A stretch of DNA of 64,000 bases from Escherichia coli. Its GTDB lineage: Bacteria > Pseudomonadota > Gammaproteobacteria > Enterobacterales > Enterobacteriaceae. Position 1 is the stretch's first letter. Every line of letters starts with the position of its first letter. The DNA is taken from the NCBI RefSeq assembly GCF_030384885.1, contig NZ_CP128615.1; one strand, given 5' to 3'. This document shows, piece after piece, positions 1 to 26,789 of the stretch. The notes below the pieces were generated by a model. The model saw only the letters and a program-made list of their open reading frames with translations. It had not been told where the DNA came from and searched no databases. The position numbers were made by a program, and so were the translations under genes.

Positions 1-2
1 AG

Positions 3-1565
3 ATGCCTCTGATCACGCGGCTTATGCTGCAAAACTTTAAAAAGTTTCCGGAACTGGACCTGCGCTTCACTCATGACCGTAACATTCTGGTCGGGGATAA
101 TGAGTCCGGGAAAAGCACGATTCTGCTGGCCCTTGACCTTGTGCTGAGCGACAGCCGGCACCGGGTCGAGGCATTGGGTGTGGAATCGCTCCTGTCCCAG
201 TCAGCAGTCAGGCAGTTTCAGGAAGGTGAGCGCCGCGCCGATCGGTTACCCGTGCTGACAGCTGATGTTTTCCTGAGTAATGGGGGAGATCCTGACCTGA
301 ACGGCAGGCAAAATCTGGCGGGTATCGATGCGGATGGTCTCAGAATGCGCATTGCACCCATGACGGAGGAATACGGTCAGGATATACATCATGTCCTGCA
401 GCAGGATCCCGATAATTTTCCCTATGAATACTATTCCGTGCGGTTCAGCACCTTCTCCGGGGGGCATTTTGCCGGCTTCAGACGCTATCTGCGCCATCTG
501 CTGTTAGACAGTGCACGCATCGATAACGAGCACGCCGCACAGGAATATACGCGCACAGTTTACAGCGTCAATGTGCCGGTAGCCGATCGGTACCGGCTTG
601 AAAACAGTTACCGGCAACAGAAAATGCACTTCTGCACCCGGCATCTGTCAGCCATAAACGACACGCTGGATACGTATCAGTTTGGCGTGCGTTCCGGTGC
701 TAAATCAGGTCTTGAGGCGAATCTGGACATTACCGAGGACGGTATTTCCATTCGTCACCGTGGAAAAGGAAGGCAGTGCTTCATCAAAACAGAGTTTGCA
801 CTGCAGCGGCATCAGCAGCAGGGAGAGCTCCACGCACTGTTGCTTGAGGAGCCGGAGAATCATCTCAGCCATGTCAGTATGAAGAGGCTGGTTAATCAGC
901 TTGCAACTGAACGGCAGACGCAGGTGTTTATTGCCACACACAGCAGCCATATCTCATCCCGCCTCGATCTGCGTAAGGCAATCCTCCTCGGGTCTGCCCG
1001 ACCGGTACTGATGAATGAACTTTCCGCTGAGACTGCCGCCTTCTTCATGAAAGCACCGGACAATAATGTGCTGGAATTTGCGCTGGCCAGACGTGTGCTG
1101 CTCGTGGAGGGGGATGCTGAGTTTATTCTGATCGAGGCCTTTTATCGCCGCCTGTATGGCAGGTCGCCGGAGGATGACGGGGTTCACATCATCGCTATCG
1201 GCGGAACGAGTTTCCGTCGTTATCTTGAACTGGCCCGTCTTCTGGAAAATCGCGTCGCGGCCCTTCGTGATAATGACGGCAACTATCAGCAAAACTGCGA
1301 TGAACGCTATGCTGACGTGCTTTGTTCCCGCTCCCGGGTATTTGCTGATCGCGATAACACCCGATCCACATTTGAAATCTGCCTGTATCAGGATAACGCT
1401 GGTCTGTGTGATGCGCTTTTCCGCGGAACACGCCGGACACTCACGGTGCAGGAATACATGCTGGCCAATAAGGCAGAAGCAGCATTCCGGCTGTTACAGC
1501 TGCACGCCGAAGAGCTGACAGTACCTGATTATATTCAGGAGGCACTGGCATGGATAAGAGAGTGA
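3..1565 (+). CDS. OLD-family ABC-type ATPase with C-terminal Toprim-like nuclease domain (GajA-like / class 1 OLD)
   Basis: 520-aa ORF; Walker A GDNESGKST, Walker B LLEEPE, C-terminal VLLVEGDAEF...RDNDGN Toprim-like motifs; stop overlaps start of downstream helicase gene. Confidence 0.75.
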   Translation: MPLITRLMLQNFKKFPELDLRFTHDRNILVGDNESGKSTILLALDLVLSDSRHRVEALGVESLLSQSAVRQFQEGERRADRLPVLTADVFLSNGGDPDLNGRQNLAGIDADGLRMRIAPMTEEYGQDIHHVLQQDPDNFPYEYYSVRFSTFSGGHFAGFRRYLRHLLLDSARIDNEHAAQEYTRTVYSVNVPVADRYRLENSYRQQKMHFCTRHLSAINDTLDTYQFGVRSGAKSGLEANLDITEDGISIRHRGKGRQCFIKTEFALQRHQQQGELHALLLEEPENHLSHVSMKRLVNQLATERQTQVFIATHSSHISSRLDLRKAILLGSARPVLMNELSAETAAFFMKAPDNNVLEFALARRVLLVEGDAEFILIEAFYRRLYGRSPEDDGVHIIAIGGTSFRRYLELARLLENRVAALRDNDGNYQQNCDERYADVLCSRSRVFADRDNTRSTFEICLYQDNAGLCDALFRGTRRTLTVQEYMLANKAEAAFRLLQLHAEELTVPDYIQEALAWIRE

Positions 1566-2572
1566 TATTTGCGGTTGCCGGCTCGGGCAAGACCACGCTG
1601 CTGATACAGCGGTTGAGTGAGGACCGGCGGACGCTGATCCTGACCTTCACCGTGAATAATGAAGCGCATCTCCGGGCGCAGATTATCAGACGTTTTGGCT
1701 TTATCCCGGACGGGATCAGGGTGATGACCTGGTTTGAGTTTCTGCACGGTTTTTGCTTCAGGCCTTTCCTGCAGGAGCAGCTGGCATCGCGTGGGCTGAG
1801 CTTCGACCAGCCCCCACCCAGAATACCGCGCACGAATGCCCGGCATTATCAGGATCCCGCCGGACGGCTGTATCACCGGAGGCTCGCACACTTACTCACA
1901 GCCCGGGGGCTGCTGCCAGATATCCGTACCCGGCTTGCCCGTTACTACGATGAACTGCTTGTCGATGAAGTCCAGGACTTTGCCGGACATGACTTTAATT
2001 TTCTGCTGGAGCTCTGCCGCGCGGAAATCACTGTGCTCTGTTGCGGCGATTTTTATCAACATACCTTTGATACAAGCCATGACGGCAACGTTAATTCAAC
2101 GCTGCACGATGACATTACGCGATATGAGGCCCGCTTCGACGCAGCAGGTTTCACGGTTGACCGGGACACGCTCAACCGGACATGGCGTTGCTCAGCTTCA
2201 GTGTGCGAGTTTATCACCGGACAACTGAACATCCGTATCGCTGCCCATGGGATACATGCCACCCTGATTGAAACGATCACAGATGCAGAGCGCACAGCCA
2301 CCCTGCACGCCGATAATACGGTGATTAAGCTCTTCTATCGTGAACATCACCGTTACGGCTGCTATTCCATGAACTGGGGCGTCAGTAAAGGGCTCGACCA
2401 CTTTCAGGATGTCTGCATTGTGATGGGATCTTCCCACTGGAAGCTTCTGACCCGTCAGGAACTGGCAGCCCTTCCACCGTCGTCCCGTAACAGGCTGTAC
2501 GTGGCATGCTCACGGGCGCGCGGCAACATTTATTTTGTTCCCGAAATTCATCTGCGCCGATTCCGGAACTGA
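1550..2572 (+). CDS. compact UvrD/Rep-like SF1 helicase (GajB-like partner of the OLD nuclease)
   Basis: 340-aa ORF; AGSGKTT Walker A, DEVQDF motif II, YVACSRARG C-terminal motif; 16-bp overlap with upstream gene. Confidence 0.7.
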   Translation: MDKRVIFAVAGSGKTTLLIQRLSEDRRTLILTFTVNNEAHLRAQIIRRFGFIPDGIRVMTWFEFLHGFCFRPFLQEQLASRGLSFDQPPPRIPRTNARHYQDPAGRLYHRRLAHLLTARGLLPDIRTRLARYYDELLVDEVQDFAGHDFNFLLELCRAEITVLCCGDFYQHTFDTSHDGNVNSTLHDDITRYEARFDAAGFTVDRDTLNRTWRCSASVCEFITGQLNIRIAAHGIHATLIETITDAERTATLHADNTVIKLFYREHHRYGCYSMNWGVSKGLDHFQDVCIVMGSSHWKLLTRQELAALPPSSRNRLYVACSRARGNIYFVPEIHLRRFRN

Positions 2573-2699
2573 GTCAGCTGCTTCTCAGTCGGGCACAATT
2601 CAGAAATAAAGCTGTATGGCCAACGATGTCACTTCAGGCTGGAAAAGTGCGGATCCGGTTTTGCCTTTTTTCGGATCTGAGCGGGAAAAGTGAGAAACC

Positions 2700-2861
2700 A
2701 ACATAGGTGTAACATATCCATATGCCGGGCATCTGCATAGGCAAAGCATACGCATATACCTACCATCTGCATATGTAACACCTATACAAGCCGGGCTTGC
2801 AGGCATATACTTCACCTATGCGGGAATACTCCCTGGCACACTCAGCATATGAGGAAAAACC
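2700..2861 (+). promoter_or_regulatory. putative vagCD promoter/operator (inverted repeat ATAGGTGT/ACACCTAT, CATCTGCATA direct repeats)
   Basis: repeat-rich region immediately upstream of vagC; a related repeat-rich region precedes the second vagC copy at 58860-59026. Confidence 0.4.
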
Positions 2862-3092
2862 ATGCGCACAGTTTCGATATTTAAAAACGGCAATAACCGC
2901 GCCATCCGTCTGCCCCGGGACCTGGATTTTGATGGCGTCAGCGAGCTGGAGATCGTCCGGGAAGGGGACAGCATCATTCTGCGTCCCGTCCGGCCGACCT
3001 GGGGCTCGTTCGCGCAGCTGGACAGGGCCGATCCGGACTTTATGGCGGAGCGTGAGGATGTGGTCAGCGATGAAGGACGCTTTGAGCCATGA
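2862..3092 (+). CDS. vagC: VagC/VapB-type antitoxin (AbrB/SpoVT fold)
   Basis: 76-aa ORF MRTVSIFKNGNNRAIRLPRDL...; 4-bp overlap with downstream PIN toxin. Confidence 0.9.
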   Translation: MRTVSIFKNGNNRAIRLPRDLDFDGVSELEIVREGDSIILRPVRPTWGSFAQLDRADPDFMAEREDVVSDEGRFEP

Positions 3093-3505
3093 AGAAAACC
3101 TGGATGCTCGACACCAACATCTGCTCGTTCATCATGCGCGAGCAGCCGGCAGCGGTGCTGAAGCGCCTGGAGCAGGCGGTGCTGCGCGGTGATCGCATTG
3201 TGGTCTCGGCCGTGACGTATGCCGAGATGCGCTTCGGCGCCACCGGCCCGAAGGCCTCGCCGCGCCATATTCAGCTGGTCGACGCGTTCTGCGCGCGCCT
3301 CGATGCCGTCCTGCCCTGGGACCGCGCCGCGGTGGACGCCACGACGGACATCCGGGTGGCGCTGCGCCTAGCCGGGACGCCGATCGGCCCGAATGACACG
3401 GCCATTGCCGGGCACGCCATCGCGGCGGGCGCCATCCTGGTGACGAACAATGTGAGAGAGTTTGCGCGGGTCCCGGGCCTGGTGCTGGAAGACTGGGTGA
3501 AATAA
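3089..3505 (+). CDS. vagD: VagD/VapC PIN-domain toxin
   Basis: 138-aa ORF MKKTWMLDTNICSFIM... with PIN acidic residues; overlaps vagC stop. Confidence 0.9.
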   Translation: MKKTWMLDTNICSFIMREQPAAVLKRLEQAVLRGDRIVVSAVTYAEMRFGATGPKASPRHIQLVDAFCARLDAVLPWDRAAVDATTDIRVALRLAGTPIGPNDTAIAGHAIAAGAILVTNNVREFARVPGLVLEDWVK

Positions 3506-3547
3506 TCCCGTAATAATTTCCGTGACGGAGACGACAGACATGAATGG

Positions 3548-3608
3548 GCTTTGTTGAATAAATCGAACTTTTGCTGAGTTGAAGGATCAGATCACGCATC
3601 CTCCCGAC
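3548..3608 (+). mobile_element. IS903-like (IS5 family) terminal fragment including IR GGCTTTGTTGAATAAATC
   Basis: matches the first ~61 bp of the intact IS903-like copy at 23903; homology stops where the IS3-family element begins. Confidence 0.65.
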
Positions 3609-3708: not shown

Positions 3709-3993
3709 ATGGGCACATCACGTTTTACCCCTGAATTTAAGGAAGAGGCCGTCCGCCAGATCACCGAGCGGGGCTATTCTATTGCTGAAGTATCTGAACG
3801 GCTCGGCGTGTCGGCGCACAGCCTATATAAATGGCTCCGGGCTGTTAAGCCTGACAACAGTGGACAGCAGGCACAGGATTTACTGGATGCCAGAACAGAA
3901 ATTCTCAGGCTGAAAGCACAGCTTAAACGCACTGAGGAAGAGCGGGATATTCTGAAAAAGGCAGCGCGGTACTTTGCAAGGGAGCCCGACTGA
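3709..3993 (+). CDS. IS3-family transposase OrfA (HTH)
   Basis: 94-aa ORF with HTH (YSIAEVSERLGVSAHSLYKW) and leucine-zipper-like C-terminus. Confidence 0.85.
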   Translation: MGTSRFTPEFKEEAVRQITERGYSIAEVSERLGVSAHSLYKWLRAVKPDNSGQQAQDLLDARTEILRLKAQLKRTEEERDILKKAARYFAREPD

Positions 3994-4567
3994 AGTATCG
4001 CTTTATCAACGATCACCGTGAAATCTGGTCGATCGTTACAATGTGTCGGGTCCTTAAGGTTGCCCGTGCCGGATTTTATGTCTGGCTCCATAACCCTGTA
4101 TCTGCCGGAGAAAAGGATAACCAGCGACTGCTGGAACTCATCCGCGACTCCTATACGCTGAGTGGTGGAGTTTACGGTTATCGCAGGGTTCATGGCGATC
4201 TTCGCGAAATTGGCGAAGTGTGCAGCAGAAACCGGGTTGCCAAAATCATGAGGAAAAACAGGATTCAGGCTATACATGGTTATAAAGTGCCACGCGGGAG
4301 CCGGGGACGACCGTCACTGATAGCGCCTAATCACGTGCGGCGTGAATTTACTGTAGTGAAGCCCAATCAGGTGTGGGTCACCGACATCACCTACATCCGC
4401 ACCTGGCAGGGCTGGCTGTACCTGGCAGTGGTTATCGATCTTTTTGCCCGTAATGTGGTGGGCTGGTCGATGAAGCCGACACTGTCGCGCGAGCTGGCAC
4501 TGGATGCGCTGCTGATGGCGGTCTGGCGACGTAAACCTGAAGAAAACGTCATTGTGCACAGCGATAG

Positions 4568-5941
4568 TAATAATGCCGATGTCAGTCTTTACCACCACTT
4601 AGTTTGCCGTTTAACCAGATTGGTGTGATTACTGATGCAGTGAAGACCTTCCCGCATCCTGACTCACACAGCGATCGACCTTTTGTGTCCTGCCCTGGAC
4701 CCGTCGGTTGCCGGAAGCGCCTTCATGCGAGGCATCTCCTCACCGATGCGCGTGACTCAAGAAGGGCCTGACGGCTTGTCTCGTTACTGTCCTGTCCGGG
4801 TTATCTGTCTGGAGATTCAACTCTGTTTCCTCACAGGAGCTCTGTCATGGTTGATAAAGTTACCGAAGCTGCCGTTGTGGGTGGCGTGGATACACATAAA
4901 GATTTGCACGTTGCCGCTGTCGTAGATCAGAACAATAAAGTCCTTGGGACTCAGTATTTCTCCACAACACGACAAGGTTACCGGCAGATGCTGGCATGGA
5001 TGACCTCGTTTGGGACATTAAAGCGAATTGGTGTTGAGTGCACAGGTACCTATGGTTCCGGTTTGCTTCGTTATTTTCAGAACGCCGGGTTAGAAGTTCT
5101 TGAGGTGACTGCTCCAGACCGGATGGAGCGACGCAAACGGGGTAAAAGTGACACAATTGATGCTGAATGTGCCGCTCATGCAGCATTCTCAGGCATCAGG
5201 ACAGTTACTCCCAAAACGCGTGATGGCATGATTGAGTCCCTGCGGGTATTAAAAACTTGCCGAAAAACAGCAATATCAGCCCGCAGAGTCGCTCTCCAGA
5301 TTATCCATTCAAATATTATCTCTGCCCCGGATGAATTACGTGAACAGCTCAGAAATATGACGCGCATGCAGCTCATCAGGACCCTGGGTTCCTGGAGACC
5401 TGATGCCAGTGAATACCGCAATGTAACCAACGTTTATCGCATTTCATTAAAGTCCCTTGCCCGACGCTATCTCGAGTTACATGACGAAATCGCTGATCTG
5501 GATGTCATGATTGCGGCAATTGTCGACGAGTTGGCACCTGAGCTGATTAAACGTAATGCTATCGGATACGAAAGCGCTTCACAGTTGCTGATCACTGCCG
5601 GAGACAATCCTCAACGGTTAAGATCAGAATCAGGATTTGCGGCACTGTGTGGTGTCAGCCCGGTCCCCGTTTCTTCTGGAAAAACGAACCGTTACCGACT
5701 TAATCGTGGTGGAGATCGTGCTGCAAATAGTGCACTTCACATCATCGCCATCGGACGCTTACGAACTGACGCAAAAACAAAGGAATATGTCGCCAGGCGT
5801 GTAGCCGAAGGACATACAAAAATGGAAGCGATACGCTGTCTAAAGCGATATATCTCCCGCGAAGTTTACACGTTACTGCGCAATCAAAACAGGCGGATCA
5901 ACAGTATCCCGATAACAGCTTGACTCTTAGAAGGGCGTCCA
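4568..5941 (+). mobile_element. IS110-family insertion sequence (about 1374 bp, no obvious terminal IRs)
   Basis: precisely interrupts the IS3 orfB codon run HSD|RGSQY (2-bp junction ambiguity); carries a DEDD-type transposase gene. Confidence 0.75.
4847..5923 (+). CDS. IS110-family (DEDD) transposase
   Basis: 358-aa ORF; N-terminal GVDTHKDLHVAAV, C-terminal ...NRGGDRAANSALHIIAIGRLR... typical of IS110 family. Confidence 0.85.
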   Translation: MVDKVTEAAVVGGVDTHKDLHVAAVVDQNNKVLGTQYFSTTRQGYRQMLAWMTSFGTLKRIGVECTGTYGSGLLRYFQNAGLEVLEVTAPDRMERRKRGKSDTIDAECAAHAAFSGIRTVTPKTRDGMIESLRVLKTCRKTAISARRVALQIIHSNIISAPDELREQLRNMTRMQLIRTLGSWRPDASEYRNVTNVYRISLKSLARRYLELHDEIADLDVMIAAIVDELAPELIKRNAIGYESASQLLITAGDNPQRLRSESGFAALCGVSPVPVSSGKTNRYRLNRGGDRAANSALHIIAIGRLRTDAKTKEYVARRVAEGHTKMEAIRCLKRYISREVYTLLRNQNRRINSIPITA

Positions 5942-6325
5942 GGGCAGTCAGTATGGCAGTGATGACTGGCAGCGGTTCTGCCGGGCCAATAATCTGGTAC
6001 CGAGCATGAGCCGTCGCGGCAACTGCTGGGATAATGCAGTGGCAGAATCGTTCTTCAGTTCACTCAAAAAAGAGCGCATCAGGAAGCGGATATACAAAAC
6101 CCGGGACATGGCCCGGGCGGATATTTTCGATTATATTGAAGTGTTCTACAACCGGGCCCGGCGCCACAGTCATCTCGGCGGCGTCAGCCCGGAGGCCTTC
6201 GAAAAGGCCTCGCAGTGAGGACAGAAACTGTCTACCGGAGCGTGGTCACTCCACATTTAAAGAAACGAGCTTTGGTAAACATACCTGTAATGACTCCATA
6301 AAATGGCGCGTCAAACGACACCTAA

Positions 6326-8401
6326 TCAATTAACCCCAAGCGCCTTAAACACGGCATCGACGGGGTCTGCATAAAAGCTGATCTGGAATTTTGAGAACAA
6401 CTCAGCAGGAACCGTTGGAATATCTGAGGCTGAGGCCATTGGGAGCAAAATACGCTTTGCGCCACTGTCCATAGCTAACTGAAGACTGCCTGCAAGATCT
6501 TGAACAGGATTGACGACACCACCTAAAGTCATCTCACCCAAAACAACCATCTGCTCTTGAATCGGTCGGTTCATCAGAATTGAACAGAACGCAATTAATG
6601 CAGCGAGCGATGACTTTGTACTTGGCCCCGTATTGTGGAGCTCAACAACATGGAGGTGATACTCATGATCAGAAAACTTCGCCGACGCACTGATTCTATT
6701 CAGGTTACCTTTGAAATAATCAAAGCCAACACGCACAGCTTCTTTCGCTGCGGTATTCGAACCAAGGCCAGACACTGAGTGTTTACCAGAACCAGCCATC
6801 ATCTGGGTTTCATAGCGATATAACCCAAGCTGCCCAGTGCTTCCCTGAGTAACCAAGTGCACGACACCAGCGCGAGGTAAGCCCTCAGGAATTAGCTTGC
6901 TGCCACCTTGTTCCGGTACATTGATGAAGAATTCTTCTAATGAATCGTTATCGATGTAGCTAAAGTGCACATCAAAAAATTCCATTCCGCCAAGCTTTTT
7001 CAATTGCTCTTTGACTCTACGTCTAGTTTCCAGCGCATAGGTCAGGCAGGCTCTTACATCATCTTTTGTGTACTGTGCGTCGGGGTGTAGTAGCTTTAAC
7101 AAGCCCGAAACAGTTCTGCGTACAGCAATTACATCACGCTGATTAAGGTTATTACCGAGTTTGAAGAACTTATCGATAGCATCCGCAAAACTTCTTTTGC
7201 GCATTTCACGCATGTATTCAGCAAGATAGTCTGTGATTAATCCGTAACTATTGGTGAAAAACTCAGGACGCATCTTCGGTATTTCCCATCCAGGAATATA
7301 GGAATGGAAACGGTCAAAAAAAGCAGTGTCAATCATGGCTTCAGGAAAAGGTGCCAACAGATGACTGGTCTTCACCAGTGTCTCAACGCTTTGATTGATG
7401 TTACCGACGAATACCATGGAAGCCTTCGCTTCGATTGAATCACGACCACGGGCAAAAGACCCTGACGCCATATAATCTTTCATTATTTGGACGCCGTCTT
7501 TGTCTTTAAAGTTAATACCCGCTACTTCATCAAAGGCGACAACATCCCACATTCCGACCAACCCAACTTGGCGCGAGCTCATGTTATAGAACAAGTTCGC
7601 CACAGTTGTTTGTCCGCCCGAGACAAGCAATGAGTTTGGTGAGCACTCCTTGTAGACATGGCTTTTACCTGTCCCTCTTGGTCCGAGCTCACAAACGTTG
7701 TAGTTGTTTTCAACGAATGGGATCATACGAGTGATAAGATGCCATTTCACCCGATGCTCTAAGTTGGTTGGCTCCATACCCACGGAACGAAGCAACACAT
7801 CCATCCACTGATCGGTACTAAAATGTCTTCTGGTTGAAAACACCTCATCCATGTTCATGGACGGCATTTGTATCGGTTTTAAACTCATAATGGAGAAAGG
7901 TGATGTCTTCTGACCTTCCTCAAAGAAATACTGGACGGTAATAATGCACCAGATGCCGCCAGTTAATAATTTTTCGTTGTCTTGTACTATTTTGGTCGGT
8001 ACAAGGGCATCCTTGATACCCAGGTTCGACAACGCAGCTTCATAGACGTCTTTTTTCTGGTTGAGCTTAACGCTTACTTTGTCGATGATTTTAAACGTGC
8101 CGCGTTCACGGATCAGTGACTTCACTTTCTCCGCTTCATCTGGTCGGACATAGTTCTCAGCCAAGATTTTTTTTACATTATCAAGGCCTTGCATTACAAC
8201 TTCGTCGTCATCGGACGCACAATACATGCCTAGTAAATACTCAAGCACATAGACAGGGACGTTAGCGCCTTCTTTCAATTGCTTTGTCAGATCTTTTCGA
8301 ACGACACGGCCTTTAAAATATTGGTTGAGCAATGCGTCTAAATCGGCGCTTTGCATCTGATTTTTTTCGTCTTTATGATCTTGTGAAAAATCAGTTGTCA
8401 T
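6326..8401 (-). CDS. brxL: BREX BrxL (Lon-like protease domain protein)
   Basis: 691-aa ORF, last gene of the BREX operon; P-loop GPRGTGKSH and Lon-like C-terminus. Confidence 0.85.
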   Translation of the reverse strand: MTTDFSQDHKDEKNQMQSADLDALLNQYFKGRVVRKDLTKQLKEGANVPVYVLEYLLGMYCASDDDEVVMQGLDNVKKILAENYVRPDEAEKVKSLIRERGTFKIIDKVSVKLNQKKDVYEAALSNLGIKDALVPTKIVQDNEKLLTGGIWCIITVQYFFEEGQKTSPFSIMSLKPIQMPSMNMDEVFSTRRHFSTDQWMDVLLRSVGMEPTNLEHRVKWHLITRMIPFVENNYNVCELGPRGTGKSHVYKECSPNSLLVSGGQTTVANLFYNMSSRQVGLVGMWDVVAFDEVAGINFKDKDGVQIMKDYMASGSFARGRDSIEAKASMVFVGNINQSVETLVKTSHLLAPFPEAMIDTAFFDRFHSYIPGWEIPKMRPEFFTNSYGLITDYLAEYMREMRKRSFADAIDKFFKLGNNLNQRDVIAVRRTVSGLLKLLHPDAQYTKDDVRACLTYALETRRRVKEQLKKLGGMEFFDVHFSYIDNDSLEEFFINVPEQGGSKLIPEGLPRAGVVHLVTQGSTGQLGLYRYETQMMAGSGKHSVSGLGSNTAAKEAVRVGFDYFKGNLNRISASAKFSDHEYHLHVVELHNTGPSTKSSLAALIAFCSILMNRPIQEQMVVLGEMTLGGVVNPVQDLAGSLQLAMDSGAKRILLPMASASDIPTVPAELFSKFQISFYADPVDAVFKALGVN

Positions 8402-8417
8402 GTTTCACCTCAGCGCC

Positions 8418-11090
8418 TTAGAAAAAATCATCTTGGAATGCCAAATCAATGGTTACCGCGTATTGGCTATAACGGGTTCTCATTTCCGCATTCTCAAGAA
8501 CTAATGTGTATTGAGCGTTTCTATCGAACTGGGAGCCAATAAGCTTTAACCTAGCTTCGCGAGTACGTTCATCCATCACTTTACTCACGCTATCAAAGTT
8601 AATCGTTTCACGACTGGAGACTTCATTACCTTGTGCATCGACGATATAGACATCCAACAACCGTGCGACGAAACGCTCGCCTACAGGGTCTGTCTGAATA
8701 AATCTGACCTTGTCGATATTGTTTACTAATTTGATGGGCTGAGTGGCTGCTACAACACCTACCGGTTGTTTCTCATGTTTTGCTGCTTGTTCTTTTTGTA
8801 GCTCTCGCACATGTAGTACCGGTACGCAGACTTCCTGTAGCATCGCTCCGCCATGCACAAACTTAGCACCACCAACGAAGTGGAAGCGTTGAGCCGCTTT
8901 TGGAAGCAGGAACTCGGTATCACTTGAGCCATGAGCCGTATCGTTAATTGAGCCTTTCCAACAGGCTTCATCTGAAGGCAAGTTATTACCAACGATATAA
9001 CGTTTCTTGGCTTCTATCGCTCCAGCAGGTTTGGTTTTCAACGAGGTTTTGTCAGCCGCTACAAGTGCTTTTTGTTGGAAGAGGAAGCCATGGTCAGCAG
9101 TGATCACAACTCGGCTGCCGTTTAGACGGTTGATGACCCGCCCAACGAGGTCTTTTAGCTCTTCAATGGCACTACGACAGGCTTCAAACGTTTTCTCTTC
9201 AGTTGCTGCCTTATCACCAATCGCATCAATGGTATCGTGATAGATATAAACGACTTCTACGTCTCGAACCTTGTCACGCCCCTCCTGGTTACTCCAGCTC
9301 ATCAGTTCCTTAGAACTCACTGCCATACCACCTACTTTTTGTAGGATGGCGTTGCGGTTGTCTAGACCCTGTGAAGAAATACCATCCACATAAACAGCCG
9401 TGCCTTGCTCTGGCTGGTAACTGAGCGCCTTATGAGGCAATAATGCCGCCATCCCAAGTTGGGTATAACTCGGCAAAACGCCCAACTGCGTAGACACCTC
9501 AGCCTTAAATCGCTTCTCGTTGTTAATGATAGCGCCAAGCTCATTCGCAATTTCAAAACGCAGGGCATCAGAGATGATCACAAACACTCGTTTTGTCTGT
9601 TTCAGACTCAGTCGTGTGCGAACTTCTTTTTCATAGAAGTCATACTGGTGCGGTACGCCAGAAATCTGCCACTTTTCAAGTAATTTTTCATTGGCCAAGT
9701 GACGATCCCATGCAAGGCCAAGCTCATACAAGTACCAGTTGGTATAAATGCTTTCGACTTCGTCGTCGAGCTGACGCAGTATGTCTGCACCTTTACTCAA
9801 TACAGAGTGCACATGCTCATTGAACAAACGGTAAGCCTGGTCAAAACGATAAATGTCTGTGGTATAGGCGTCGTACATTGCTTTCGCGTTATCAAAGTGG
9901 AACCCATCCACATAGCGATTTCGCAAGTGCATTAACTCTTCAGCGTTGCGGATAGCTTCATAAATTGCGAAGTATTCTTTGCGTGACAATGTCCAGTGGC
10001 TAGAAAGACGTCTTGATAAGACCGTATCAAACTGAACCCGGTCTAGCGCTTTACTGCTATCGAGCAAATCACGAACTAAACCACGGATTATGGCCTGTTC
10101 CACAGCTTCGAACGTTTCGCATTCGATAAGCTCAACCGGATGGTACTGCCCAGCACGAGTCGAAATTTCCAACTGTTGGCTAAGCACCTTAGAGATGCTT
10201 TCGTAGTAAGCGGCGAAAGAGCGGCTGTCGCGCCAGCTCACCATAAACGCCAAGGCTGTCGCCCGGCCTGATGCGCTTTTTAGAACATTGTTAAGCAACC
10301 AATCGCGTTCAACACCTTCAATTTGGCTCCAGAATTCAGTACAGAATAATTTCAACACGAAGTCTGAGAAGGTTGGCTCTTCAACTGTATAGCCAAAACC
10401 CTCACTCAGATATGCCCAGAGTGAGGTCTCAAGATCAAACTTTCCTAGCTGGCTCCATAAAGGTTGACCAAGGCTTTCATCTTCGATATAAGCCGCATAT
10501 TCGCGTAGTAACCCAAGCAGAATGTCCGACAAAGACGCAGAATCAGCTTTTACAACCACTGCCATCATCTTTCTGTCTAACGACAGTTCGTCTTCGTTCT
10601 CAGTCACCCACTTTTTTAAACCGGCTATGCGCTGTTTATTGGCAAAAAAGCTCTGGCGCTTACGAATGTGCGTGCGAAGCGCCATTTTCGGAATACCCAG
10701 CTCATTAAGCAGCATTGAGCTGTGATCAGCAAAAAACTGCTCGCTATACAAACGCACGTCTAGCAACCAATCGCGGTCAGGCTCTGGCTCAGCGCTTGGA
10801 AAATAGATAAGGAATTTAGCTTCACGCTCATCTACTTCAATGCGTTTTTTCACTGCCAATACAGACTCATTGCCCATATTGAGGATGGTCAAATCATTTG
10901 GAAGCACCCGTGCAGTTTTATCCGCCGATTTATCGTCTGTTTCTTTTGCAAGCCCTTCTTTTGCAATAGAGAGGGCGTTAGCTAAATGCTCAAGCTCTTC
11001 AGTAAAGCTTTGCTCTGGGTCGTACCAAAACACAATGCGGCTTTGTTCAAATTTGGCAGCAACGCCTTGTGCCAGTTCACTAATCTGCAT
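8418..11090 (-). CDS. pglZ: BREX PglZ (alkaline-phosphatase superfamily)
   Basis: 890-aa ORF between pglX and brxL; N-terminal VFWYDP motif; size and position typical of PglZ. Confidence 0.85.
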   Translation of the reverse strand: MQISELAQGVAAKFEQSRIVFWYDPEQSFTEELEHLANALSIAKEGLAKETDDKSADKTARVLPNDLTILNMGNESVLAVKKRIEVDEREAKFLIYFPSAEPEPDRDWLLDVRLYSEQFFADHSSMLLNELGIPKMALRTHIRKRQSFFANKQRIAGLKKWVTENEDELSLDRKMMAVVVKADSASLSDILLGLLREYAAYIEDESLGQPLWSQLGKFDLETSLWAYLSEGFGYTVEEPTFSDFVLKLFCTEFWSQIEGVERDWLLNNVLKSASGRATALAFMVSWRDSRSFAAYYESISKVLSQQLEISTRAGQYHPVELIECETFEAVEQAIIRGLVRDLLDSSKALDRVQFDTVLSRRLSSHWTLSRKEYFAIYEAIRNAEELMHLRNRYVDGFHFDNAKAMYDAYTTDIYRFDQAYRLFNEHVHSVLSKGADILRQLDDEVESIYTNWYLYELGLAWDRHLANEKLLEKWQISGVPHQYDFYEKEVRTRLSLKQTKRVFVIISDALRFEIANELGAIINNEKRFKAEVSTQLGVLPSYTQLGMAALLPHKALSYQPEQGTAVYVDGISSQGLDNRNAILQKVGGMAVSSKELMSWSNQEGRDKVRDVEVVYIYHDTIDAIGDKAATEEKTFEACRSAIEELKDLVGRVINRLNGSRVVITADHGFLFQQKALVAADKTSLKTKPAGAIEAKKRYIVGNNLPSDEACWKGSINDTAHGSSDTEFLLPKAAQRFHFVGGAKFVHGGAMLQEVCVPVLHVRELQKEQAAKHEKQPVGVVAATQPIKLVNNIDKVRFIQTDPVGERFVARLLDVYIVDAQGNEVSSRETINFDSVSKVMDERTREARLKLIGSQFDRNAQYTLVLENAEMRTRYSQYAVTIDLAFQDDFF

Positions 11091-14000
11091 TAGTTAACCT
11101 CCGGGGCCGAACCGGTAATGGCCTTAACATCAGCCAACAGATCACCAAACTTGCCGTAATTCACTTTCACGCCATCATCCAAATCCAGTGAAATACGCAT
11201 ATCAGCGTAGTGTTTTAGCTTGTCATCAAACTCGCGTAGTTCAACCTGTTTCTTGATTAAGGCATCCAACTCTTTCTTGAAGCGGTTCGCTTCACTGGTC
11301 GAGTCTGCCGTTTCAATCTGCTTCTCAAGCTGCTCTGCATAAGCATCGTATTTGCCGAGTAACGGGGTGACATACTCGGTACGCATACGCGAAAGCGTGC
11401 CCTCGTTGTAACGGTGCAGGTAAACCAGGCACTCAAAAGCCTTCTGTTTGCCTGAGCTAAACAACCAATAAATAGGACGTTTTTTGTATGTCTTCAGGTG
11501 GTCTTTGTAGAATTGAGTCGATAAATAGCGGCGGATCGTCTCAAGAGCTGATTCTGATTTTTTGGGCTTTATGGCATTTAAGCACAGAGACTCTGCAACA
11601 AAATCGAGATTTTCTTGTAAGTGTTCTTCACCCCAAACAACTTGGACAAACTCGCGGAAACGATTGGTTGCGTCGTCCTTGAACCATTCTTGGTCGGTTA
11701 GGGGAATGATGCCATTTTCGTCGGCAGCAAAAGATTGATAAGCACCTTCGGCAACGAGTTTATCAAACCCATAATTACAAGCATGAGCGTAGACTAAGCC
11801 TTCACGATCAAGAGAGTAACGCCCCATCATGCAACCAATGGAGTAACTAATGAGTTCACAGGTTGTATCAGATTTTAACTTACTTAAATCAGTAGAATTT
11901 TCATATCGAAAAGCAGGGTTAGCAAATAATGATAGTGTTGAAATATCTATTGAAACCGGCACCGAAATTCCAAAATCATTGCATATTAAAGAATTAACTT
12001 CACTTTCCAAATTGGCTTGTTCATTAACTAGATTTAACTTCACTTCATTTAGAACCTGATAAGATTCAGCAATTTTGGCACGTTTTATTTTACACAGAGG
12101 CGAACATTCAAAGTTCCATGACGTTTCGTACATATCCCAATCAACCTTTGCGTTGGAAATTAAATCGCTCACCTTTTCAAACAATGCTTCTTTGTCAGCC
12201 TTATTGAAAATTGCCGGCAATGAGGCTATTTGACTCGTTTCATAGTTAAGCGTTGGCGAAATGATTTTTAACTGTTCCAGCACTACAGATGAGTTTAACT
12301 GAGCCAATAAGGCATATTCTTCAATTCGAGAATTAAGAAATACTGATGCACCTGCAACGTCAAATATCGCTCCTTCAGGCTGCCATCTGAACGATGGAAT
12401 TCCACTCGAAATTTTTGACCAAGTTACTGAGCTACGAAAATAAAATGCACCATTTTTCACAGTTCTAGTAGGAGACCCATACAAACTTTTAGCGTATGCA
12501 AATACCTCTTCACCTGCATTTTCCCAATTAATTACGTATTCCTGATTGCCATACCATTTTCTATATGAACCGCCTTTATTATATGGAAACCATTTGAATC
12601 CTGAGGATTCAGCTTCATCTTTAGAACTAGAGTCATACATTGAGGTGTTTACTGGAACTTCATGCCATAGCCTTAAGAATCTATTATTATCACTTGTTTG
12701 ACACCCAACTCTAGTTTTAGCAACTGACGATATTGGCGCGTCCATAAATGTATTTAATATTTCCTTGGCAACCCAATAAGCAATCGGACTCCCAGGAATC
12801 TTTTTGAAATCATCCTGAGCTGTCGCTGCAAATTCATTCTCTCTATTGAGCAATGCTTTTTGCTTTTCTTCTTCATTGCCATCTATCAGCCTATAAAAGG
12901 TAGGTTGATAATGATTGATGTGCTTATTTTGAATAATCCAGGCAGTAGTCTGTACAACCTCGCCACTAATCTGACTAAAAGCGCGTGCACCGAGGTGAGC
13001 CATAGTAATAAATGTATGGTCTTCCAATAAATTGTTTCTTAGTTGCTCATAACTCGACAAGAACATCCACGATTGCATATTGATTTGAGCATTAAATCCA
13101 TATTGAGAAAGCAATTTAAATGCTCGCTCCATAAAAATGGCAAACAAGTCTGATTTACTATTTGGGTATTGTTTCTTAGCAAACTCTTTCAAATCTGCAT
13201 TCATTCCTTTTGCTCCCATATAGGGAGGATTAGCAATCACAGCATCGTAACGAATAGATAAAACCAAAGCCTGGTGAACAAACTCAATCAATTGCTTCGC
13301 TGCCAGCTTCTGCATTGAGTCGCCTGACTCTTGTAGCTCTACTAGCGTGCTCAGGAGCTCTTTTAGCTGTTCATGGTCATCGCTTGGTACATCAATCAAT
13401 GAACCAAAGGTCTTGGCTTGAGTAAATCTTGCCAACGTTCGCTTCAGCAGTTGGTAGCGGTTGTCTGCATTGAACGAGCTTAAATCTTGCTCTTCGTCAG
13501 AGAACAGTCCTTGTGATGTGCCGCTTTGCCAACTTCCCGATAGGTTGAGTGCTTTCCATAAGGTCGGCAGATCAATATGGTTACTTTCCTGCAATGACAG
13601 TACATTGAGTCGCACGTTACGGGTAAAAATACGCTTGTCGTCATCTCTCGCCATCATCATCAGGGCAAAGCCAGATAGCTGTGCTGCACGATCATCTATG
13701 TCCAAGCCGAAGAGGTTGTTCTCCAGGATCATCTTTGGAATGTCACGAGAGCGGAAACCACGTTCTTCGTAGATGGCTTTTAGTACGTTGTAAGCTTCAA
13801 TCAGTATGTGGCCCGAGCCACAAGCGGGATCGAGTACTTTGATGGTTTCAGGTTCAATCGATTCTGGCGTAATAGCCTTTAGCTGTTGGTTAACTTCGTC
13901 AGATTGCTGCGCAGGCTCAATGTAGTATTCCATCTGGCTTTTAATGGCAGAGTCTGGGTAGGTTTGCAGCCATTGACGACCGACTGAGTTTTGTACCAGG

Positions 14001-14758
14001 TACTTTACAATCCAGTTAGGTGTAAATAGCTGAGTAGCGGCAGGAATGTCTTCACTTTTGACTACTTTTCCGATGACCTGATCTTTCTTTTCAGAAATGT
14101 AGAATTGGTAAAGCCAACCAATCACTTCGACTTGTTGCCAGTCCTCTTCAGGGATGCCGTCTACCAATCCACGCAGAATGGAGTCGGTACGCATTAGGTT
14201 GTCTGGTAGCAGAAGCTCTGTTTCATCGTCCAATGCGTCAAATAAGAAAGGCATCGCTTCATGTAGCTTATGGCACTGGCCTAACAGCAGTTCACGATAC
14301 AGCTCTTCGTCTTTGTTGCCCGCAAGCTTGAGTTCAACAATGCGAGCTCTATCTAATCCGAGTTCATCCGCAGCGTCTTGGGCATGGTCGATAATTTCAA
14401 AGCCTTTAGGGTTGTCTGGGTGCGACAAAACACGAAAACCGTGGCCTAGATAGTCATGGATTTCCATATAGCGAATAGCACACAGACGGTTGAACCAGGT
14501 ATAAGCTACTTGTTCAATAAGTTGTGCATACCCAAGTTTCTGGCTTCTGGCTACTATGCGTTTTCTGGGCTCGGCCAGTTTACCGTCAAAACTGTTACCA
14601 GCGATTTGAAGCACAGAACCTTGTAGATTCGCTTCTGCAATTTGTAGCTCGCCCTTTTTATTCGCGGTGATACCAAAGGTATTTAATCGTTTAGCTACCG
14701 CATCCATAAATTCGCGGCGCGCTTTTGGTGCGTATTTTTTAATGTTGTTCGTATTCAT
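11090..14758 (-). CDS. pglX: BREX PglX N6-adenine DNA methyltransferase
   Basis: 1222-aa ORF; SAM motif LDPACGSGHIL and catalytic NPPY (ANPPYMGAKG). Confidence 0.9.
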   Translation of the reverse strand: MNTNNIKKYAPKARREFMDAVAKRLNTFGITANKKGELQIAEANLQGSVLQIAGNSFDGKLAEPRKRIVARSQKLGYAQLIEQVAYTWFNRLCAIRYMEIHDYLGHGFRVLSHPDNPKGFEIIDHAQDAADELGLDRARIVELKLAGNKDEELYRELLLGQCHKLHEAMPFLFDALDDETELLLPDNLMRTDSILRGLVDGIPEEDWQQVEVIGWLYQFYISEKKDQVIGKVVKSEDIPAATQLFTPNWIVKYLVQNSVGRQWLQTYPDSAIKSQMEYYIEPAQQSDEVNQQLKAITPESIEPETIKVLDPACGSGHILIEAYNVLKAIYEERGFRSRDIPKMILENNLFGLDIDDRAAQLSGFALMMMARDDDKRIFTRNVRLNVLSLQESNHIDLPTLWKALNLSGSWQSGTSQGLFSDEEQDLSSFNADNRYQLLKRTLARFTQAKTFGSLIDVPSDDHEQLKELLSTLVELQESGDSMQKLAAKQLIEFVHQALVLSIRYDAVIANPPYMGAKGMNADLKEFAKKQYPNSKSDLFAIFMERAFKLLSQYGFNAQINMQSWMFLSSYEQLRNNLLEDHTFITMAHLGARAFSQISGEVVQTTAWIIQNKHINHYQPTFYRLIDGNEEEKQKALLNRENEFAATAQDDFKKIPGSPIAYWVAKEILNTFMDAPISSVAKTRVGCQTSDNNRFLRLWHEVPVNTSMYDSSSKDEAESSGFKWFPYNKGGSYRKWYGNQEYVINWENAGEEVFAYAKSLYGSPTRTVKNGAFYFRSSVTWSKISSGIPSFRWQPEGAIFDVAGASVFLNSRIEEYALLAQLNSSVVLEQLKIISPTLNYETSQIASLPAIFNKADKEALFEKVSDLISNAKVDWDMYETSWNFECSPLCKIKRAKIAESYQVLNEVKLNLVNEQANLESEVNSLICNDFGISVPVSIDISTLSLFANPAFRYENSTDLSKLKSDTTCELISYSIGCMMGRYSLDREGLVYAHACNYGFDKLVAEGAYQSFAADENGIIPLTDQEWFKDDATNRFREFVQVVWGEEHLQENLDFVAESLCLNAIKPKKSESALETIRRYLSTQFYKDHLKTYKKRPIYWLFSSGKQKAFECLVYLHRYNEGTLSRMRTEYVTPLLGKYDAYAEQLEKQIETADSTSEANRFKKELDALIKKQVELREFDDKLKHYADMRISLDLDDGVKVNYGKFGDLLADVKAITGSAPEVN

Positions 14759-14773
14759 ATGATCTTGCGCCTC

Positions 14774-16537: not shown

Positions 16538-16553
16538 AGTTATCCGTTGCCTC

Positions 16554-20231: not shown

Positions 20232-20249
20232 TCGGGAGGCTCCCTGCTC

Positions 20250-20843
20250 TTAATTTTTTTTACCGTCTTCAGGCACAAGCTTGAAGGCGCGATAGTAGTT
20301 TTTAGATTCGATCATGCCGAAAGGATGCAAATCCCTTCCGCTATATTCACCCGGATAGAAAAGCACTAATGGCGTGCTACCCATAACGTCTTGCAGAGCA
20401 CTAAGTAACTCATGTCCTCGGATAAGAGGCCACGCACTGCCTAAGCCTGACAGCAACACAAACTCAAGTTCTGATGGCTTATATTTGTCCGCGATATACC
20501 TTGCCACTTTCTCTTGGCTCAGAGGCCCGGCTAGTGTTTTTCGAAGGCCATCAACACCGACTTGCAATTCACGCTGGCAAGCTCGGTCGAAAAGGCCTCG
20601 CTCCTCAAGCATATCTATCAAGACTTCAAAAATATTGAGATGGACAAAGCGGTAACCACGCTTGTTGAGTTTTTCGTCAACGTGCTTAATGTGCTCTCGT
20701 ACAAGCAGTTCATACTTGGCTGGATAGTCAAATACCCAAAATCCAATTTCATTGCCCAAGCCATCGTTTTTCAAAAACTTAGGGCTTTCAATTCGTTCCA
20801 GTATCAGATCAAGCCTGGTCTGAAGAGCCTTCATATTGTGCAC
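20250..20843 (-). CDS. brxB: BREX BrxB (DUF1788)
   Basis: 197-aa ORF immediately upstream of brxC, overlapping brxA; size and position typical. Confidence 0.8.
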   Translation of the reverse strand: MHNMKALQTRLDLILERIESPKFLKNDGLGNEIGFWVFDYPAKYELLVREHIKHVDEKLNKRGYRFVHLNIFEVLIDMLEERGLFDRACQRELQVGVDGLRKTLAGPLSQEKVARYIADKYKPSELEFVLLSGLGSAWPLIRGHELLSALQDVMGSTPLVLFYPGEYSGRDLHPFGMIESKNYYRAFKLVPEDGKKN

Positions 20844-21430
20844 TCCATTACCTCAATCAAATCTTCCCGGCCCAGACGAACTAACCAGTCTTTAACTTCT
20901 GGCATTAGGTAAACAGGTTGTATTTTCTTTGTCCTGCTATCACTCAGGTAGCCACTATCAACCAGTGCCTTAATTGCGTTGTTACCCATTTTTTTGACAG
21001 TTGAGTCAGAAAAACCGCCAAGCTCAGCATATGCCCGCACTCTCGTGTCATAAAACTCAGACCATGCATCAGCGGTTAAAGAGGGTTTATAGGTGCGACG
21101 AGCTTCGGCTAAGGTAAGTCGCATAAAATAAGCGACAACCGGAGAATGAATGAGTAATGACATCATCAGCATTTGGACATAGGCACGTTCACTCGCGGCT
21201 AAAAGATCAGTCATAAACTCATCACCCAGGCCTTCAATACGCCAACGGATTGTTCTGGCATAACGAATAGCCGTCTGACCGGATTTTTTCTGAAGAACAT
21301 TTTGCTCAACGATCAGCGACTTCCACTCATCTTCTGGAAGTTTTTTCAATAGCGATTCTGCGATTATTCTAGATTCAGTTATCAATAAACTGCCTCCGAT
21401 AAGATCGCCTAAATATTCTTTTATATTCAT
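20831..21430 (-). CDS. brxA: BREX BrxA (DUF1819)
   Basis: 199-aa ORF first structural gene of operon; size and position typical. Confidence 0.8.
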   Translation of the reverse strand: MNIKEYLGDLIGGSLLITESRIIAESLLKKLPEDEWKSLIVEQNVLQKKSGQTAIRYARTIRWRIEGLGDEFMTDLLAASERAYVQMLMMSLLIHSPVVAYFMRLTLAEARRTYKPSLTADAWSEFYDTRVRAYAELGGFSDSTVKKMGNNAIKALVDSGYLSDSRTKKIQPVYLMPEVKDWLVRLGREDLIEVMECTI

Positions 21431-21439
21431 AAATTCATC

Positions 21440-26758: not shown

Positions 26759-26789
26759 CCCGCATGGCATAGGCCTATCGTTTCCACGA

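What the first reader, a model, noticed from the sequence alone, without database searches (positions are those of the whole stretch)
3..2572. Unusually compact OLD-family nuclease / UvrD-like helicase pair (Gabija-like)
ORF1 (520 aa) combines an ABC-type ATPase (Walker A GDNESGKST, Walker B LLEEPE) with a C-terminal Toprim-like segment (VLLVEGDAEF, RDNDGN). ORF2 (340 aa) carries SF1 helicase motifs (AGSGKTT, DEVQDF, YVACSRARG). The ORF2 start lies 16 bp inside ORF1, implying translational coupling. OLD nuclease plus UvrD-like helicase is the Gabija (GajA/GajB) / class 1 OLD architecture, but both proteins are clearly shorter than the canonical forms as I recall them (roughly 580 and 490 aa). 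This may therefore be a minimal or divergent variant, or a distinct two-gene system. It sits directly upstream of vagCD and about 4 kb from BREX.
Basis: partly seen in the sequence, partly recalled or inferred. Interest (0 to 1): 0.6.

Follow-up and report, generated by a model that had tools for sequence, protein, structure and literature searches.

The report
Compact plasmid-borne Gabija defence pair
These two overlapping genes are a short-form member of the known Gabija anti-phage system (an ATP-controlled DNA-cutting enzyme plus a stripped-down helicase); this form is very common on E. coli and Klebsiella resistance plasmids, yet I found no experiment that tested it.

Summary

PADLOC matches both end to end, to GajA and GajB sub-family profiles of the same short length (E 1.5e-101 and 1.7e-47).

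The shortness is a trait of the clade, not a truncation:
- Hundreds of 50%-identity clusters measure about 520 aa and 333-397 aa.
- The same 16-nt overlap recurs in Pseudomonas, Acinetobacter and Vreelandella defence islands.
- dN/dS is 0.08 for gajA and 0.12 for gajB.

The module occurs on 2775 PLSDB plasmids and in 15% of complete E. coli genomes, almost always as vapBC-gajA-gajB.

The Gabija systems I could check that were tested experimentally are long forms (B. cereus; E. coli ECOR49, 566+540 aa, chromosomal). I found no test of the compact clade.

Verdict: an ordinary defence-system call, with an uncharacterised minimal architecture. Interest is modest.

The parts
3..1565 (+). gajA (compact clade): an OLD-family nuclease of 520 aa. 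[quoted passage not shown]
   Evidence: PADLOC GajA PDLC00102, E 1.5e-101, residues 4-517 against profile positions 3-531 of 532. Pfam AAA_15 N- and C-terminal parts plus OLD-like_TOPRIM. AF2 model pLDDT 81.7. Foldseek gives TsOLD 7.6e-16 and BcGajA 1.4e-15. The motif residues are invariant in 31 homologues.
1086..1382 (+). Toprim catalytic core of GajA (residues 362-460). Predicted metal A ligands are E369, D423 and D425. Predicted metal B ligands are E373, T456 and E458.
   Evidence: Pfam PF20469, E 1e-16, residues 362-425. All six residues are invariant in alignment A2. They were assigned by position and spacing against BpOLD E400/D455/D457 and E404/T506/E508 (PMC7049728), and by the alignment with BcGajA E379.
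1537..1565 (+). Translational-coupling junction: Shine-Dalgarno AGGAGG (1537-1542), gajB ATG (1550) and gajA TGA (1563-1565). The overlap is 16 nt, ATGGATAAGAGAGTGA.
   Evidence: Read from the sequence. The same 16-nt overlap, ATGGATAAGAGnGTrA (GTG start in Vreelandella), is present in E. coli pNDM-5-1001, P. protegens, Vreelandella and Acinetobacter loci, although the proteins are only about 50-58% identical.
1550..2572 (+). gajB (compact clade): an SF1A helicase core of 340 aa. It has domain 1A (residues 1-78 and 133-188), a reduced 1B-like insert (79-132) and domain 2A (189-340), with no 2B domain. Motifs: I GSGKT 11-15, II DEVQD 139-143, III GDFxQ 166-170, IV R213, V NWGxSKGxD 275-283, VI VAxSR 318-322.
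1784..1945 (+). Reduced 1B-like insert of GajB (residues 79-132). It is a loop plus two helices (109-118 and 122-132) that precede the Walker B strand. This is the likely counterpart of the BcGajB 1B helices that dock on GajA.
   Evidence: Model secondary structure. A profile alignment places residues 109-174 on PcrA 192-257. BcGajB Nacc is residues 73-155, and its contacts with GajA (V147, Q150) are in 1B (PMC10681800 and PMC10781630). The docking role is an inference.
2573..2861 (.). Intergenic region downstream of gajB. The joint with the vagCD-IS-BREX block lies at about 2652-2662, and the vagC promoter/operator region follows. This region is not part of the Gabija unit.
   Evidence: Plasmids that carry vagCD-BREX without gajAB match the window only from 2652/2662 onward. 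The simple consensus scan found no terminator-like site on the + strand here.

Best explanation
This is a two-gene Gabija-type (Class 2 OLD) defence operon of a compact clade, carried in the maintenance region of an IncF-type plasmid.

Shown:
- gajA and gajB are co-oriented and overlap by a conserved 16 nt with a strong Shine-Dalgarno site, so they are very probably translated in a coupled way.
- GajA has an intact ABC-ATPase site, a helical dimerisation insert and a complete two-metal Toprim site.
- GajB has all SF1 ATPase/translocase motifs on a bare 1A+2A core, with a stub of 1B and no 2B.
- Both genes are under purifying selection.
- The pair sits in defence islands in other genera.

Inferred from studied Gabija and OLD enzymes:
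- GajA oligomerises through its helical insert, and GajB docks on it through the retained 1B helices.
- Nucleotide binding by the GajA ATPase holds the Toprim nuclease in check.
- On infection the complex nicks or cleaves invading DNA. The trigger could be nucleotide depletion, or linear DNA ends not occupied by RecBCD.
- The GajB motor supplies DNA-dependent ATP turnover or translocation.

On plasmids this protects the host, and so the plasmid, against phages and perhaps against rival mobile DNA.
For: - Full-length matches to PADLOC GajA and GajB profiles.
- OLD-like Toprim and AAA_15 domains.
- Fold matches to TsOLD, BcGajA and retron Eco8 OLD for ORF1, and to Rep, UvrD, PcrA and BcGajB for ORF2.
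- Invariant catalytic residues in both families.
- The pairing and the identical 16-nt overlap are conserved in 5 of 5 loci across distant genera.
- dN/dS is 0.08 and 0.12.
- Chromosomal relatives sit beside an AAA_21+HNH pair (Septu-like), type I R-M genes and Wadjet jetABCD.
- In this window the pair lies about 4 kb from a complete type I BREX.
- Gabija mechanism is taken from PMC10781630, PMC10681800, PMC10568477 and PMC12407980.
- Wu et al. report defence-finder 'Gabija' with VapBC on E. coli plasmids.
Against: - I found no experiment on any member of this clade.
- Similarity to tested Gabija proteins is marginal. ORF1 against BcGajA gives E 5e-10 over residues 267-409 only. ORF2 against BcGajB gives E 0.7. 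Against the tested E. coli ECOR49-type pair, identity is 20% for GajA, and for GajB only the Walker A region aligns.
- The family profile of ORF1 does not recover BcGajA from the PDB at E<=0.01.
- GajB lacks the 2B domain, and GajA lacks the Class 2 Insert 3 helix in the model. Complex geometry, regulation and inhibitor sensitivity may therefore differ.
Confidence: 0.77

Rival explanations
1. The biochemistry is the same, but the selected function is plasmid-centred. In this reading the vapBC-gajAB block is a plasmid maintenance and competition module. It attacks incoming rival plasmids or other mobile DNA, or stabilises the carrier plasmid together with VapBC, and phage defence is not its main role.
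For: - About 1570 of the 1580 PLSDB plasmids with a near-full gajAB also have a vapBC homologue adjacent.
- The block sits with ccdAB, a resolvase/integrase, and the par and rep genes in E. coli and Klebsiella IncF plasmids.
- In E. coli, 832 places are on plasmids and 14 on chromosomes.
- Wu et al. suggest a role in plasmid maintenance and conflicts between mobile elements.
- PA14 Gabija can also target plasmids (abstract of PMC12407980).
Against: - Distant relatives are chromosomal, lack vapBC and sit among anti-phage systems.
- Nothing in the sequence is specific to plasmid DNA.
- Linkage with vapBC may simply reflect inheritance of one IncF backbone block.
Confidence: 0.13
2. It is a separate OLD-helicase system that profile tools only lump with Gabija. 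A Class-1-like OLD nuclease is partnered with a 2B-less SF1A motor that works as an unregulated translocase or helicase. Its trigger, stoichiometry and target differ from those of Gabija.
For: - Very low similarity to all studied GajA and GajB proteins.
- The top fold hits are Class 1 TsOLD and Rep, not BcGajA and BcGajB.
- There is no 2B domain. The spacing from the first Toprim Glu to the metal B Glu is 89 residues, against 103 in TsOLD and 108 in BpOLD.
- The helicase clade is discrete in length: the 150 best of the 389 clusters at E<=1e-30 are all 432 aa or shorter, and the full-length ones are 333-397 aa.
- From general knowledge, not tested here: removing 2B from Rep activates its monomer helicase.
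Against: - The defining genetic architecture of Gabija/Class 2 OLD is met.
- Other PADLOC GajA profiles also hit ORF1 at E 1e-33 to 1e-17, better than Old (8e-19) or AriA (5e-18).
- The catalytic machinery is the same.
- The 1B helices that mediate GajA-GajB contact in B. cereus appear to be retained.
Confidence: 0.2
3. It is a DNA repair or processing accessory for the plasmid itself, for example handling conjugative or replication intermediates, and has no immune function.
For: - The fold is related to RecF, Rad50, SMC and UvrD/Rep repair proteins.
- It lies near umuDC, par and rep functions on IncF plasmids.
Against: - The OLD/Toprim plus helicase pairing is a recognised defence architecture.
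- Chromosomal relatives lie in defence islands, not near repair or conjugation genes.
- Many plasmids carry deleted copies without obvious consequence, with 43-54% coverage of the query.
Confidence: 0.04

Closest known systems
Bacillus cereus VD045 Gabija (GajA 578 aa / GajB 494 aa; PDB 8SM3, 8J4T, 8U7I)
   Same: - Gene order is gajA then gajB.
- GajA is an ABC ATPase with a helical dimerisation insert plus a Toprim domain. The Toprim Glu aligns (E369 with E379), and the Walker A, Walker B and H-loop motifs are present.
- GajB is an SF1A fold with motifs I-VI.
- Both pairs are called Gabija by PADLOC.
   Different: - ORF1 is 58 aa shorter. About 49 aa of the shortfall lie after Toprim helix alpha2 (111 against 160 residues remain after the aligned block).
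- ORF2 is 154 aa shorter. It has no Cacc/2B domain (103 aa in BcGajB), and its 1B is 54 aa instead of 83 aa.
- Pairwise sequence similarity is E 5e-10 for the GajA proteins and 0.7 for the GajB proteins.
E. coli ECOR49-type Gabija tested by Wu et al. (566 + 540 aa)
   Same: Same species, the same PADLOC/DefenseFinder label and the same two-gene layout. Mutating its catalytic residues K35, H317, E379, GajB K27/T28 and D183/E184 abolished defence. The counterparts here are K37, H313, E369, K14/T15 and D139/E140.
   Different: - The ECOR49 type is chromosomal and sits in a P4-like satellite hotspot (integrase ... psu, delta). Its primer sequence matched 18 of 5426 genomes and no plasmid.
- The compact type is in 823 of 5426 genomes, nearly always on plasmids.
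- GajA identity is 20%, and for GajB only the Walker A region aligns.
Thermus scotoductus OLD (Class 1, 528 aa; PDB 6P74)
   Same: It is the best Foldseek hit for ORF1 (7.6e-16). [quoted passage not shown]
   Different: TsOLD is a stand-alone gene, which is what defines Class 1. ORF1 always has an overlapping helicase gene downstream (5 of 5 loci). Only the N-terminal 50 residues align by sequence.
E. coli Rep / UvrD / PcrA (SF1A helicases, 630-720 aa)
   Different: ORF2 has no 2B domain and only a remnant of 1B. From general knowledge it resembles the engineered Rep lacking 2B. The gene is not housekeeping: it is plasmid-borne and coupled to a nuclease.
PADLOC GajA PDLC00102/00098 and GajB PDLC00148/00140 sub-family profiles
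   Same: Both match end to end and at the same length (532/534 and 369/365 positions). This clade is therefore already part of the catalogued Gabija diversity.
   Different: These are profile models only. I found no described structure, biochemistry or phenotype for the clade.

Membership tests
Gabija (= Class 2 OLD system) | [quoted passage not shown] | tested here: met
   Pfam AAA_15 plus OLD-like_TOPRIM. PADLOC GajA, E 1.5e-101. The fold matches TsOLD and BcGajA.
Gabija (= Class 2 OLD system) | A UvrD/PcrA/Rep-like SF1 helicase gene lies immediately downstream in tandem. | tested here: met
Gabija (= Class 2 OLD system) | The catalytic residues are intact: GajA Walker A Lys, H-loop His and Toprim acidic residues; GajB Walker A and DExQ. 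| tested here: met
   K37, E282/E283, H313, E369, E373, D423, D425, T456 and E458 are invariant. GSGKT 11-15 is invariant, and in DEVQD 139-143 the D139, Q142 and D143 are invariant with E140 and V141 in at least 90% of sequences.
Gabija (= Class 2 OLD system) | Class 2 Toprim hallmark: an Insert 3 helix between alpha3 and beta4. | tested here: not met
   In the AF2 model only about 9 residues lie between helix 428-434 and strand 444-447, with no helix. The definition comes from PMC7049728. This rests on a model and was not checked by superposition.
Gabija (= Class 2 OLD system) | Class 2 C-terminal helical domain, which makes the protein about 50 aa longer than Class 1. | tested here: inconclusive
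   Five short helices follow beta4 (457-519, about 62 aa after E458), against about 86 aa after E508 in BpOLD. The total length of 520 aa is like Class 1. I had no coordinates with which to superpose.
Gabija (= Class 2 OLD system) | GajB has a four-subdomain architecture (1A, 1B, 2A, 2B). | tested here: not met
   Motif IV (R213) and motif V (275-283) are about 60 residues apart, and that stretch is filled by core strands and helices. No 2B is present, and 1B is reduced to 54 aa.
Gabija (= Class 2 OLD system) | GajA and GajB form a 4:4 supramolecular complex. | not testable with these tools
   No multimer prediction or biochemistry was available. The retained 1B helices (109-132) make docking plausible.
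Gabija (= Class 2 OLD system) | An anti-phage phenotype that requires both genes. | not testable with these tools
   I found no test of this clade in the searched literature. The systems whose sequences I could check are long forms: B. cereus and E. coli ECOR49. PA14 GajB has a DESQ box rather than the clade's DEVQ.
Class 1 OLD (P2 Old, TsOLD) | A stand-alone old gene with no adjacent helicase. | tested here: not met
   A helicase gene overlaps it in every locus examined.
PARIS (AriA/AriB) | The ABC ATPase and the Toprim nuclease are separate proteins, and there is no helicase. | tested here: not met
   The ATPase and Toprim are fused in ORF1. The best-scoring stretch of the AriA profile match covers only residues 4-52.

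The most novel reading that the evidence does not exclude
The compact clade may be a mechanistically distinct OLD-helicase system rather than just a small Gabija. It would pair a Class-1-like OLD nuclease with a natural 2B-less SF1A motor, comparable to the engineered, de-repressed Rep lacking 2B. Its assembly, trigger and susceptibility to phage anti-Gabija proteins would then differ from the B. cereus paradigm. Because this clade, and not the tested long forms, is the 'Gabija' that dominates IncF resistance plasmids of E. coli and Klebsiella, and is nearly always welded to vapBC, current statements about plasmid Gabija would rest on the wrong model protein.
Probability: 0.22. Interest if true: 0.55.

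Novelty: new variant of a known kind. Interest (0 to 1): 0.33.

Why it matters
About 15% of complete E. coli genomes and thousands of Klebsiella and Enterobacter plasmids carry this module, including conjugative IncF resistance plasmids. It is therefore probably a common reason why clinical strains are scored as 'Gabija-positive' when phage susceptibility is predicted.

Every mechanistic or structural study I could check used long-form proteins that share 20% identity or less with it.

If the compact form works, it marks out a smaller functional core for Gabija: GajB would need no 2B domain and GajA no Insert 3. It would also be a smaller, more tractable system for structural work. If it behaves differently, genome-based predictions of phage resistance for these plasmids need revising.

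Tried and rejected
- **Truncation or pseudogene.** Rejected. The lengths 520-523 and 340-345 aa are conserved in more than 100 homologues each. dN/dS is well below 1. The start is confirmed by RefSeq and by an upstream ribosome-binding site in sister plasmids.
- **Class 1 OLD.** Rejected by definition, because a helicase partner is always present.
- **PARIS, Septu or retron-OLD.** Rejected. Only the N-terminal P-loop region matches those profiles.
- **Phage origin.** There is no DNA match in 50,697 phage records, and PHROG hits are weak and partial.
- **The idea that Wu et al. had tested this very system.** Rejected. The ECOR49 mutant numbering and the primer sequence identify a 566+540 aa chromosomal pair on a P4-like satellite.
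- **The idea that PA14 Gabija belongs to the compact clade.** Unlikely. PA14 GajB has a DESQ box, whereas D139, Q142 and D143 of the DEVQD box are invariant here and E140 and V141 nearly so.
- **vagCD downstream as the conserved partner.** Rejected. The conserved vapBC is upstream. The apparent 'gajAB+vagCD' matches came from BLAST pieces that were joined out of order.
- **Reference plasmid.** I could not retrieve CP083423.1, the reference plasmid of Wu et al..
- **Profile search against the PDB.** The profiles gave no useful long alignment with GajA or GajB.
- **Literature.** Searches for a described short Gabija sub-type found nothing.
Full report
**Observation.** The window opens with two co-oriented ORFs on the + strand. 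ORF1 is 3-1565 (520 aa) and ORF2 is 1550-2572 (340 aa). The ORF2 ATG lies 16 nt inside ORF1 and is preceded by AGGAGG at 1537-1542. ORF1 is not cut by the window edge: RefSeq annotates the same 520-aa protein in near-identical plasmids, with an AAGGA ribosome-binding site just upstream.

**Identity.**
- PADLOC matches ORF1 end to end to a GajA profile (PDLC00102, E 1.5e-101, residues 4-517 against positions 3-531 of 532).
- PADLOC matches ORF2 to a GajB profile (PDLC00148, E 1.7e-47, residues 1-330 against positions 1-352 of 369). A second short profile also fits each protein.
- Pfam finds OLD-like_TOPRIM (E 1e-16) and split AAA_15 in ORF1.
- Pfam gives only sub-threshold UvrD hits in ORF2. 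This explains why RefSeq calls ORF2 either 'DNA helicase UvrD' or 'hypothetical protein'.
- NCBIfam has no model for either protein.
[quoted passage not shown] Class 1 is the stand-alone form.

**The compactness is real and belongs to the clade.**
- Homologues of ORF2 are 340-345 aa and homologues of ORF1 are 520-523 aa. They occur across Enterobacterales, Pseudomonas, Acinetobacter, Halomonadaceae and Burkholderiales.
- A profile search of 1.84 billion cluster representatives found 389 clusters at E<=1e-30. Among the 150 best hits listed, full-length ones are 333-397 aa and none exceeds 432 aa.
- In loci from P. protegens, Vreelandella and Acinetobacter the two genes are paired in the same way. 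They share the same 16-nt overlap, ATGGATAAGAGnGTrA, even though the proteins are only about 50-58% identical to those here.
- Against an E. coli allele, dN/dS is 0.08 for gajA and 0.12 for gajB.

**GajB anatomy.**
- The AF2 model is confident (pLDDT 90.2, pTM 0.85).
- All SF1 motifs are invariant in the family.
- BcGajB has Ncore 1-72 and 156-222, Nacc/1B 73-155, Ccore 223-313 and 417-494, and Cacc/2B 314-416.
- In ORF2 the insert at the 1B position is 54 aa (79-132). It ends in two helices that align with the last 1B helices of PcrA.
- Motifs IV and V are only about 60 residues apart, so there is no 2B domain.
- In B. cereus the GajA-GajB contact is made by the C-terminal part of 1B (V147, Q150). 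The retained helices 109-132 could do the same job here. This is an inference.

**GajA anatomy.**
- The model is of moderate confidence (pLDDT 81.7).
- Foldseek ranks Class 1 TsOLD (7.6e-16) and BcGajA (1.4e-15) almost equally.
- K37, E282/E283, H313, E369, E373, D423, D425, T456 and E458 are invariant in the family. [quoted passage not shown]
- The alignment with BcGajA runs level up to residue 409 of ORF1 and 418 of BcGajA. After that, 111 residues remain in ORF1 against 160 in BcGajA, so most of the shortfall is C-terminal.
- The model shows no helix between Toprim alpha3 and beta4, so the Class 2 'Insert 3' is absent. Five short helices follow beta4.
- The spacing from E369 to E458 is 89 residues. 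The equivalent spacing is 103 in TsOLD and 108 in BpOLD.

**Distance from studied systems.**
- ORF1 against BcGajA gives E 5e-10 over one block. ORF2 against BcGajB gives E 0.7.
- The ORF1 family profile does not recover BcGajA at E<=0.01.
- The E. coli Gabija tested by Wu et al. came from ECOR49. Its mutant list (GajA K35, H317, E379, D495, K528; GajB K27/T28, D183/E184) and its cloning primer identify a 566+540 aa pair in a chromosomal P4-like satellite. The primer sequence matched 18 of 5426 complete genomes and no plasmid.
- That pair shares 20% identity with ORF1. With ORF2 only the Walker A region aligns.
- PA14 GajB has a DESQ box, not the DEVQ box that is conserved in this clade.
- I found no experiment on the compact clade.

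**Context and distribution.**
- The 2.7-kb segment matches 2775 PLSDB plasmids, 1580 of them near full length. Klebsiella accounts for 1653 and Escherichia for 746, and most are conjugative.
- It matches 823 of 5426 complete E. coli genomes, with 832 places on plasmids and 14 on chromosomes.
- In E. coli and Klebsiella IncF plasmids the conserved order is ccdAB - vapBC - gajA - gajB.
- About 1570 of the 1580 plasmids with a near-full gajAB have an adjacent vapBC homologue.
- The downstream vagCD in the window (2862-3505) is a paralogue of the upstream vapBC, 83% identical in nucleotides. It belongs to a vagCD-IS-BREX block that ColV-type plasmids carry without gajAB. The joint lies at about 2652-2662.
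- Wu et al. had already noted that 'Gabija', tmn and VapBC co-localise on E. coli plasmids.
- Chromosomal relatives sit beside an AAA_21+HNH pair, type I R-M genes and Wadjet.

**Conclusion.** Best explanation, at about 0.77 confidence: this is a functional compact Gabija-type nuclease-motor defence operon.
- Shown: the gene structure, the coupling signal, intact active sites, purifying selection, the minimal fold and the defence-island context.
- Inferred: complex formation, ATP-gated DNA nicking or cleavage, and the anti-phage phenotype.
- Rivals: a plasmid-competition role with the same biochemistry, a mechanistically separate OLD-helicase system, and a DNA-processing role for the plasmid.
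- The call itself is ordinary for defence-system annotation. What is new is the explicit minimal architecture, and the fact that the widespread plasmid form is not the form that has been studied.

Noticed in passing
window 6326-22366 (- strand): A complete type I BREX cluster: WYL regulator (21440-22366), brxA, brxB, brxC, a 587-aa HEC-05/DUF262 protein (14774-16537) embedded between brxC and pglX, then pglX, pglZ and brxL. The embedded gene resembles the BrxU/GmrSD-type arrangement that I recall from plasmid pEFER.
   Followed up: partly
window 2573-3505; L001 7170-7929: In the closest plasmids gajAB is bracketed by two paralogous vapBC copies, 83% identical in nucleotides over 758 nt. Their similar 'CATATGC...CATCTGCATATG' promoter/operator regions could support recombinational gain or loss of the cassette. 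Homology to plasmids that carry vagCD-BREX without gajAB begins at 2652/2662.
   Followed up: partly
window 3709-6218: An IS3-family element appears to be split by an inserted IS110-family transposase gene (4847-5923). The IS3 pieces are orfA at 3709-3993, the N-terminal part of orfB at 4041-4628 and the C-terminal part of orfB at 6006-6218. The element lies between vagCD and brxL.
   Followed up: no
window 3-2572 compared with L004 12720-15292: The two genes diverge unevenly between alleles: gajA is 93.8% identical in nucleotides and gajB only 85.7%. This suggests recombination within the operon, or different histories for the two halves.
   Followed up: no
L009 (E. coli VR50 chromosome, 6001-9320): The experimentally tested ECOR49-type Gabija (566+540 aa) sits in a P4-like satellite hotspot next to tRNA-Thr (integrase ... 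psu, ogr/delta). It was found only on chromosomes, in 18 of 5426 genomes. The plasmid 'Gabija' discussed in the same paper is therefore most likely the compact clade.
   Followed up: yes
plasmid hits H54-H57: Some Klebsiella and Enterobacter plasmids keep only 43-54% of the 3.6-kb query (window 1-3600: gajAB plus vagCD), with internal deletions in gajAB next to an intact vapBC. The defence pair is therefore lost at times while the toxin-antitoxin pair stays.
   Followed up: no
window 25874-38798 and 50200-55459: The rest of the window is typical resistance-plasmid cargo and backbone: tet(A) (26790-28064), two Tn3-family transposases, a PAS/methyl-accepting chemotaxis-like protein (32916-34493), umuC, a ParA-type partition ATPase and a RepE-like initiator.
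   Followed up: partly
window 1550-2572: RefSeq annotation of this gene is inconsistent across near-identical plasmids ('hypothetical protein', 'DNA helicase UvrD' or 'helicase UvrD'). Pfam UvrD domains score below threshold and NCBIfam has no model.
   Followed up: yes
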